Assembly: GCA_051294375.1 (NCBI GenBank) | Contig: CM119267.1 | Location: 9,325,709 to 9,389,708 of the forward strand | DNA: 64,000 nucleotides | Direction of reading: 5' to 3' | Source: Paraspadella gotoi | Taxonomy: Eukaryota; Animalia; Chaetognatha | Shown: positions 45,872 through 46,732 of the stretch, one piece after another | Numbering within the stretch: the stretch's first letter is position 1 | Layout of the letters: each line of letters opens with the position of its first letter | The notes under the pieces: generated by a model | Told to the model about the DNA's origin: nothing | Database searches by the model: none | The model's input: only the letters and a program-made list of their open reading frames with translations | Made by a program: the position numbers and the translations under genes

Positions 45872-46732
45872 ATGAACGACGTCCGACCCCTAACTCCTGT
45901 CTGCGGCTTTTGCCGCACCCGCGCTTCAGACGAAGGTCGCGAGCTTCTTTTTTGCTCTCGCTGCCACGCCGTTCGCTATTGCGGAGAGGCGTGTCAGCGC
46001 GCGGCATGGACGGACGGGCACCGAGACGCCTGCGGTCGTGTGGTCACCTCCTTCGACGAGACCAAAGTCCGTGGTCCCTTCCGTCTCGAAGAACTTCGCT
46101 TCGCTCTTCTCAATATGAGGGATGACACCCCCGTCGGACCCGACGGTTTCCCGGTTCTCTTTTACAAGACCTTTTTCGACCATCTTGGCCCCACCCTCCT
46201 CAAGGTGCTGGAGGAGACGTTGGAGGGTGGCCAAGTCGACGCCAAAATGTCTCAAAGGGAGGTGGTTCTTGTCGAAAAAGAACATGAAAAGAAAAAGAAA
46301 AACTCGGTTCGTTGGAGAAAAACTGAAACTCGAGACGCCGGTTCTCGCGAGTCTCGAACCGCTGACGTCGATCCTACTTCTGCCTCTGTTCACAACCGTC
46401 CCGCCATTTTGCGTCAGTTGCGCGCTATGACGCGAAACCCCCGAGTCGATTACGTCATATTTTCCGGCGCGGCAATTAAGACGGACCGCGGCGTCGTCCT
46501 GCTCAACGCCGACGCTCGCCTTCTATTTCGCGTCAATTGGAACCACGCCGTGTTCGCCCGCGGCGCCGATGTCGCCGGCCATGCTCGTCTGTTGTTTAGC
46601 CAGTTAGGTGGGGCGCCGCCTCGCGACGCCGATTTAGACGATCGTCTTGCCGAGCAGCTTCAGCTTGAGTTCGGTTGCGGCGTGCGTGGCGACTCGGAAA
46701 GAAGAGAAAAATCCGCCGGAAAAAATCCGTAG
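45872..46732 (+). CDS. MYND zinc finger fused to an N-terminal fragment of an L1/Tx1-type LINE reverse transcriptase, intronless
   Basis: MYND CGFC...FCSRCHAVRYCGEACQRAAW..GHRDAC, then PFRLEELRFALLNM...PVGPDGFPVLFYKTFFDHLGPTLLKVL...VVLVEK...RGVVLLNADARLLFRV. Confidence 0.8.
   Translation: MNDVRPLTPVCGFCRTRASDEGRELLFCSRCHAVRYCGEACQRAAWTDGHRDACGRVVTSFDETKVRGPFRLEELRFALLNMRDDTPVGPDGFPVLFYKTFFDHLGPTLLKVLEETLEGGQVDAKMSQREVVLVEKEHEKKKKNSVRWRKTETRDAGSRESRTADVDPTSASVHNRPAILRQLRAMTRNPRVDYVIFSGAAIKTDRGVVLLNADARLLFRVNWNHAVFARGADVAGHARLLFSQLGGAPPRDADLDDRLAEQLQLEFGCGVRGDSERREKSAGKNP

What the first reader, a model, noticed from the sequence alone, without database searches (positions are those of the whole stretch)
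45872..46732. Possibly domesticated LINE reverse-transcriptase fragment fused to a MYND finger
Seen: an intact 286-aa ORF with host-like composition. After the MYND finger, ~46073-46535 follows the L1/Tx1 ORF2 pattern (P...EEL..AL..M....PGPDG.P..FYK.F...L.P.L..V....L..G......I.LI.K...R.I.LLN.D.K.L) with an insertion of about 65 aa. There is no endonuclease, no YADD core, no poly(A) tail or TSD, and no flanking LINE sequence. Inference: a catalytically dead host gene keeping only the N-terminal RT region (domains 0-2). It sits directly upstream of a Vreteno-like gene, so it could act as a decoy or adaptor linking retroelement RNPs to silencing. That role is speculative.
Basis: partly seen in the sequence, partly recalled or inferred. 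Interest (0 to 1): 0.82.

Follow-up and report, generated by a model that had tools for sequence, protein, structure and literature searches.

The report
Host protein keeps LINE enzyme fragment
An animal gene carries an 84-residue, non-catalytic piece of a LINE jumping-gene reverse transcriptase between a zinc finger and an unnamed domain; that piece is the best-conserved block among its relatives, so it was likely domesticated, probably as a protein-binding or structural part rather than an enzyme.

Summary
The ORF is real (286 aa, intact MYND finger). Residues 57-140 align without gaps to the start of the L1/Tx1 reverse transcriptase (RT0/NTE plus first fingertip strand, ORF2p ~440-523); no catalytic motifs or endonuclease. 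So a LINE fragment likely landed in the linker of an older MYND gene. Relatives at about 50% identity share the layout; the 48-residue RT0 core is 35-40/48 identical among four of them, more than either host domain in most pairs, and monophyletic: likely purifying selection. The RNA-contacting lid of the RT0 loop is the variable part, which argues against LINE-RNA binding; a structural or protein-binding role is my best reading (0.5). The piRNA-decoy idea rests only on adjacency in a run of same-strand genes (0.15). dN/dS, synteny, copy number and expression could not be tested.

The parts
45872..46732 (+). Single open frame, 286 aa: MYND - LINE RT0 fragment - unnamed C-terminal domain
   Evidence: the closest relative P0002 starts at the same place just before the MYND finger
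45902..46033 (+). MYND zinc finger, residues 11-54, eight ligands intact
   Evidence: Pfam PF01753 E 1.2e-9; ligands listed
46040..46291 (+). L1/Tx1 ORF2-derived segment, residues 57-140 (human ORF2p about 440-523: R0/NTE-0 region and first fingertip strand)
   Evidence: domain boundaries from PMC10830420 passages
46079..46222 (+). Conserved RT0 core, residues 70-117 (helix - RT0 loop - helices)
   Evidence: 35-40 of 48 identical in all six pairs among P0001-P0004; median 19 of 48 among 25 RT segments
46121..46147 (+). RT0 loop: variable lid half (residues 84-88) and invariant GPDG anchor (89-92)
   Evidence: P kept in 23 of 25 RTs is lost in 4 of 4 family members; lid mapping from bioRxiv 2021.05.13.443781 passages
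46256..46279 (+). RT1 / first fingertip strand, residues 129-136 (equivalent to ORF2p 512-519, including I515 and I517)
   Evidence: kept in all five relatives aligned, in two of them after an insertion
46292..46381 (+). Basic, poorly conserved linker; in four relatives it starts with a degenerate RT2-like remnant that this ORF has lost
46382..46684 (+). Unnamed ~100-aa MYND-partner domain (predicted helix, two strands, three helices), residues 171-271; not RT-derived as a whole
   Evidence: HMM from RT-free proteins only: 47 bits; hhalign 98.6%; AlphaFold pLDDT 89.4, pTM 0.80; no Pfam, PDB sequence or clear fold match
46493..46531 (+).
   Evidence: strand 36-38 and helix 43-58 of the model
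47151..48832 (+). Context only: downstream RRM-MYND-Tudor-like gene (Vreteno/Veneno-like layout, one weak Tudor), 418 nt after the stop
   Evidence: (Tudor E 1.3e-4, 22.5 bits, cut-off 23)

Best explanation
The gene encodes a MYND finger, a non-catalytic LINE RT0 fragment and an unnamed C-terminal domain; the fragment likely entered the linker of an older MYND gene once, was likely kept by purifying selection, and probably now works as a structural or protein-binding module of an adaptor protein rather than as an enzyme or RNA lid. Steps: (1) shown: three-part anatomy and absence of catalytic RT motifs. (2) shown: the two host domains occur together without RT, 24-77 residues apart, in five other proteins; here they are 121-241 apart. 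(3) inferred: an in-frame insertion of about 250-300 nt of L1/Tx1 ORF2 into that linker, in a common ancestor of the carriers. (4) inferred from protein conservation: selection on the RT0 helices and GPDG turn. (5) inferred: the helices' hydrophobic face, which packs on the fingers in ORF2p, found a new partner, most simply the strand-helix of the C-terminal domain that resembles RT block 2; the MYND finger would bind proline-rich partners as other MYND fingers do. The partners are unknown.
For: RT origin; 15 of the 25 RT-like hits carry Pfam RVT_1 and 2 an APE endonuclease. Older host scaffold. One origin: four RT cores form one branch, 98/94 support on 53 columns; five C-domains one branch, 98/99. 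Constraint: P0001 against P0002/P0003/P0004 37, 39, 37 of 48 in the RT core, versus MYND 30 and 24 of 44, C-domain 46, 68, 63 of 98, RT tail 3-6 of 23, linker 6-12 of 32; best RT 26 of 48. Remodelling: the lid residues 84-88 vary, RT-conserved P (23/25) and E (18/25) are lost in 4 of 4, and five positions (F77, L96, F102, H104, E114) are invariant in the family but rare in RTs; the core is net acidic. In group II intron RT the N-terminal half of the loop contacts the RNA backbone and the C-terminal half anchors it on the fingers (passages). The C-domain 13-mer scores 14.5-20.7 against an RT2 profile while the same place in five RT-free relatives scores -8.4 to 5.8.
Against: No DNA of any relative was found, so dN/dS, synteny and copy number are untested, and the relatives' organisms are unknown; only four sequences hold the whole RT core and only three clusters show the full layout (P0004/P0160 lack MYND, P0005 starts after the core). 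The RT profile was built from hits chosen by similarity to the query. Ordinary RT cores in this set are just as acidic (mean K+R 4.5, D+E 6.7), so charge does not discriminate, and the lid binds RNA largely through backbone atoms, so lid variability is only moderate evidence. The full-length model is unusable (pLDDT 41). No RNA data were obtained.
Confidence: 0.5

Rival explanations
1. Anti-LINE decoy or sensor: the RT0 piece binds LINE ORF2p or its RNP in trans and the MYND finger hands it to silencing factors, perhaps the neighbouring RRM-MYND-Tudor protein.
For: Adjacent to a Vreteno/Veneno-like gene; mosquito Veneno is a piRNA adaptor (passages); ORF2p fragments may bind the rest of ORF2p in trans (passage on tower-base fragments); L1TD1 was proposed as a defence gene (abstract).
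Against: Neighbourhood is a same-strand run of mostly housekeeping genes; the two MYND fingers are 29% identical; near-invariance of the core is the opposite of the positive selection reported for L1TD1; Lyosin and L1TD1 did not suppress L1 in reporter assays (passages); family-specific residues depart from the RT consensus.
Confidence: 0.15
2. The RT0 piece is a repurposed nucleic-acid-binding module acting on host RNA or DNA, helped by the basic stretch after the RT1 strand.
For: R0 forms a lid on template RNA in ORF2p; a basic run follows the strand in all five relatives.
Against: The groove needs fingertips and palm, which are missing; lid residues are variable and the core is net acidic.
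Confidence: 0.15
3. One reading: one RT0-RT2 fragment interrupted by a large insertion, the LLN.D motif being true RT block 2 (a patch recombined into the C-terminal domain).
For: 13-column RT2 profile: best window in all five relatives is this motif, p at most 0.001 in four and 0.018 in one; it scores higher against RT than against the RT-free domain.
Against: With four residues before and five after, the RT-free domain wins in 5 of 5 (12.0-18.4 versus 1.7-15.9); on 24 columns the motif scores 4.4-19.7 against at least 54.2 for true RTs; an in-place RT2 remnant follows the RT1 strand in 4 of 5 relatives (p 0.000-0.03); both motifs are a strand followed by a capped helix, which can converge. 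This rival concerns origin and does not exclude the best explanation's function.
Confidence: 0.12
4. Neutral passenger or mobile-element remnant: a tolerated in-frame insertion, or a non-autonomous element.
For: Copy number and expression untested; no genome held.
Against: The insert is the most conserved block while flanking linkers are unalignable; host-like codon use; 148 and 418 nt from host genes.
Confidence: 0.05

Closest known systems
BCNTP97 (ruminant bucentaur paralog with an RTE-1 endonuclease domain)
   Same: A piece of a LINE ORF2 protein fused in frame inside a host gene; function unknown (PMC12129022 passages).
   Different: Keeps an intact endonuclease domain; here a non-catalytic RT0 sub-domain of an L1/Tx1-type element, in a non-mammalian animal.
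Lyosin, L1-RFX5, NUP42-L1, USP4-L1 and L1TD1
   Same: LINE-1 coding sequence co-opted by host genes, several under purifying selection.
   Different: All from ORF1; mostly alternative exons; the authors state that conserved ORF2 fusions remain to be elucidated.
RTOM1-3 of monotremes
   Same: Conserved host genes derived from a reverse transcriptase (abstract).
   Different: Retroviral RT, stand-alone genes; retroviral RTs lack the R0 region altogether.
L1/Tx1 ORF2p (human L1, PDB 8c8j/8uw3)
   Same: R0/NTE-0 helices, GPDG loop and first fingertip strand.
   Different: No endonuclease, tower, palm (D600/D702/D703), thumb or wrist.
MYND plus unnamed C-terminal domain proteins (P0082, P0105 = Mycena KAJ6613193.1, P0110, P0022, P0164)
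   Same: Same two host domains in the same order.
   Different: No RT insert; larger proteins, one with RING, ankyrin and TPR domains; none characterised.

Membership tests
Active L1/Tx1 non-LTR retrotransposon | R0/NTE region homologous to ORF2p | tested here: met
Active L1/Tx1 non-LTR retrotransposon | RT palm with catalytic aspartates | tested here: not met
   no RVT_1; no motifs in three + frames; RT queries match only 45950-46273
Active L1/Tx1 non-LTR retrotransposon | APE endonuclease upstream | tested here: not met
   two endonuclease-bearing ORF2 queries hit only the RT0 piece; upstream gene is a DUF4743 protein
Active L1/Tx1 non-LTR retrotransposon | 3' poly(A) tail and target-site duplication | tested here: inconclusive
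   none around the fragment among repeats shown; an old insertion would have lost them; an A-run at 47070 lies in the spacer
Active L1/Tx1 non-LTR retrotransposon | Many genomic copies | not testable with these tools
   no genome held; one copy in 64 kb
Domesticated host-transposon fusion gene | TE-derived coding sequence in frame with host domains | tested here: met
Domesticated host-transposon fusion gene | Conserved in divergent relatives with one origin | tested here: met
   organisms of the relatives unknown
Domesticated host-transposon fusion gene | Purifying selection on the TE part (dN/dS below 1) | tested here: inconclusive
   protein-level conservation strong; no DNA for dN/dS
Domesticated host-transposon fusion gene | Single copy at a syntenic locus, expressed | not testable with these tools
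   no genome, no DNA of relatives, no RNA data obtained
MYND zinc finger | C4-C2HC ligand set | tested here: met
   definition from PMC3555993 abstract
Full-RT domesticates (RTOM; rvt and telomerase recalled) | Complete RT domain | tested here: not met
piRNA Tudor adaptors (Vreteno/Veneno) | Tudor domain in the protein itself | tested here: not met
   none in P0001; only the neighbour has a weak one
piRNA Tudor adaptors (Vreteno/Veneno) | Binding to Piwi-pathway proteins, germline expression | not testable with these tools
   needs experiment

The most novel reading that the evidence does not exclude
A LINE RT0 sub-domain was domesticated and re-docked on a host domain whose strand-helix evolved (or was patched) to mimic RT block 2, rebuilding a miniature non-catalytic copy of the ORF2p fingers surface; this mimic acts as a decoy or sensor for factors that bind LINE ORF2p and couples them through MYND to silencing.
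Probability: 0.15. Interest if true: 0.88.

Novelty: new variant of a known kind. Interest (0 to 1): 0.62.

Why it matters
Domesticated LINE proteins are rare and nearly all come from ORF1; a 2025 survey names one ORF2 case (an endonuclease) and leaves ORF2 fusions open. This would be a conserved host protein built on the RT0 region, the part that distinguishes non-LTR from retroviral RTs and serves template switching, showing that a 50-80 residue non-catalytic RT piece can become the most constrained block of a host protein. It also exposes an unnamed, confidently folding MYND-partner domain. Both are small enough to express and solve.

Tried and rejected
Whole-genome copy count: no genome held. 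DNA of relatives: metagenome scan by alignment 0 of 235 stretches confirmed; pattern scan gave 3 loci, all chance matches in other frames or genes; viral contigs 0 of 48 and 0 of 15; prokaryote genomes 0 of 21. ESM Atlas: no usable hit, twice. Full-length AlphaFold model pLDDT 41, Foldseek no match at E 0.001: meaningless. A composite alignment for a better full-length model misaligned the C-domain rows and was not used. C-domain fold searches: nothing at E 0.001 in PDB or viral libraries; best VIA Z 5.2 of 48,161 chains, noise level. Complex prediction of RT piece with C-domain: no verdict, score 0.00 twice, alignments not used, partner fold uncertain. Origin by duplication of the neighbour's MYND: rejected, 29% identity and the W..GH ending is shared with 4 of 5 RT-free C-domain proteins, not with the neighbour. 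Earlier scan notes: nothing relevant. Literature: no description found in searches of the open-licence library; subscription papers and supplements were not seen.

Full report
Setting. The window is from a gene-dense animal genome: the upstream PB1 protein matches human TFG at E 1e-42, introns are short, and the genes identified by Pfam from 0.7 to 54 kb all lie on the + strand. The ORF sits 148 nt after a DUF4743 gene and 418 nt before an RRM-MYND-Tudor-like gene. No whole genome is held and I did not determine the species.

The observation. The frame 45872-46732 is open for 286 codons. Pfam finds only zf-MYND. A search of 1.84 billion representatives returned 564 proteins at E 0.001; among the best 150 listed, three kinds appear: full-length relatives, MYND-only hits, and hits to residues ~57-150 or ~155-272. 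A profile from the family's RT-like block retrieves 25 non-family proteins from the fetched set; 15 of these 25 carry Pfam RVT_1 and two an APE endonuclease, the other ten show no Pfam family. A profile of 22 of them scores the ORF at 83.9 bits over residues 57-145, the best of 1000 shuffles 4.7, and hhalign gives 99.5% over 83 ungapped columns. That profile is biased by selection on the query; the unbiased figures are the library-wide E-values (1e-7 for P0042) and the weak match to human ORF2p 467-527 (E 0.06). With the offset the piece spans ORF2p ~440-523: it starts where the tower (240-440) ends, covers the R0/NTE-0 region and ends at the strand carrying I515 and I517 (PMC10830420 passages). 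The catalytic D600/D702/D703 region is absent.

The C-terminal third is a different domain. Residues 171-271 match proteins without any RT: an HMM built only from five segments of P0082, P0105, P0139 and P0110 scores the ORF at 47 bits and two non-seed proteins at 56 and 97 bits (P0022, P0164), with hhalign 98.6% over 96 columns. In five of these six proteins a MYND finger precedes the domain by 24-77 residues; in the three complete family members the gap is 121-241 residues and holds the RT piece. P0139 has no MYND. Only one of the six is named (a Mycena protein). The domain has no Pfam or PDB sequence match, folds with pLDDT 89.4 and pTM 0.80 from ten sequences and has no clear structural neighbour, which does not show that the fold is new.

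The LLN.D motif. It is not dismissed by shuffling. On 13 columns it is the best RT2-like window in all five relatives (14.5-20.7; p at most 0.001 in four, 0.018 in one; true RTs 14.1 minimum, 32.6 median), and the same place in five RT-free proteins scores -8.4 to 5.8. With flanks the RT-free domain fits better in 5 of 5, on 24 columns true RTs score at least 54.2 against 4.4-19.7, and four relatives have a separate, degenerate RT2-like stretch right after the RT1 strand (p 0.000-0.03; absent in this ORF, p 0.88). My reading is that the host domain's strand-helix drifted or was selected towards RT2, or received a short patch; the five members are one lineage, so this is a single observation.

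Relatives and constraint. Two searches of 5.8 billion proteins gave four and six relatives, 45-58% identical where long, on contigs of 0.5-2.9 kb from unnamed metagenome-type sources. The 48-residue RT0 core is 35-40 identical in all six pairs of the four that hold it, against a median of 19 among the 25 RT segments (maximum 41 for one near-duplicate pair) and 26 for the best RT to this ORF. From this ORF the core is 77-81% identical to the others, MYND 55-68%, the C-domain 47-69%, the RT tail and linker 13-38%. The cores form one branch (98/94, only 53 columns), as do the C-domains (98/99). A dead insert would have decayed like the linkers, so purifying selection is likely; dN/dS could not be computed because no DNA of relatives was found.

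How it may work. In group II intron RT, residues 23-26 of the RT0 loop form a lid on the RNA backbone, while the later residues, including D30 which has a counterpart in LINE RTs, anchor the loop on the fingers (bioRxiv 10.1101/2021.05.13.443781 passages). Aligned on that aspartate (D91), the lid is residues 84-87, which differ among the four members; the proline kept in 23 of 25 RTs and the glutamate kept in 18 of 25 are lost in all four, while GPDGF and the helix cores are invariant and five new invariant residues appear. This pattern fits a folded helical unit with a new fixed interface better than an RNA lid or an arms-race decoy. MYND fingers bind peptide partners (PMC3555993 abstract). 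I therefore commit to an adaptor in which the RT0 unit packs on the C-domain or another host protein (0.5). No call shows the packing, the partners or expression.

The neighbour. It has RRM, MYND and a Tudor-like region just under the Pfam cut-off, a layout like Veneno, a piRNA adaptor in mosquitoes (PMC9304006 passages; the Vreteno layout itself is recalled). Adjacency in a same-strand run of unrelated genes is weak evidence, and the MYND fingers are 29% identical.

Comparison and verdict. It is not an active element. It belongs with host-transposon fusion genes; known LINE cases are L1TD1 and four ORF1 exons, plus BCNTP97 from an ORF2 endonuclease, and ORF2 fusions are described as open (PMC4161310 abstract; PMC12129022 passages); RTOM genes come from retroviral RT (PMC9514029 abstract). 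Seven searches found no MYND-RT0 fusion; supplements and subscription papers were not seen. New variant of a known kind, interest 0.62.

Noticed in passing
window 707-54330: All genes identified by Pfam (TRIM-NHL, kinase, two methyltransferases, C2H2 protein, RRM protein, Rpc31, PHD/SCAF11-like, TFG, DUF4743, this ORF, RRM-MYND-Tudor-like, Myb, aspartyl-tRNA synthetase, PX protein) lie on the + strand; four spacers measured are 148-418 nt. Looks like an operon-type, possibly trans-spliced array.
   Followed up: partly
window 46382-46684; P0082, P0105, P0110, P0139, P0022, P0164: An unnamed ~100-aa MYND-partner domain with no Pfam family and a confident predicted fold; tandem copies in a Mycena protein. 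Whether the animal gene came by horizontal transfer is open.
   Followed up: partly
model of window 46382-46684: Three four-helix-bundle entries (2gsc, 2rld, and 8ub7 chain B from a diversity-generating retroelement RT complex) appear in the top ten at Z 4.3-4.6; noise level.
   Followed up: no
window 48110-48577: The neighbour's Tudor-like region is degenerate (22.5 bits, cut-off 23) and seems to be single.
   Followed up: partly
window 21084-22262: Strongly pyrimidine-skewed tandem repeat that keeps several frames open.
   Followed up: no
window 47387-47418: Exact 16-nt tandem duplication near the first exon-intron boundary of the RRM-MYND-Tudor-like gene.
   Followed up: no
window coding regions 42-54 kb: CpG observed/expected 1.1-1.6 in exons, suggesting little gene-body methylation.
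   Followed up: no
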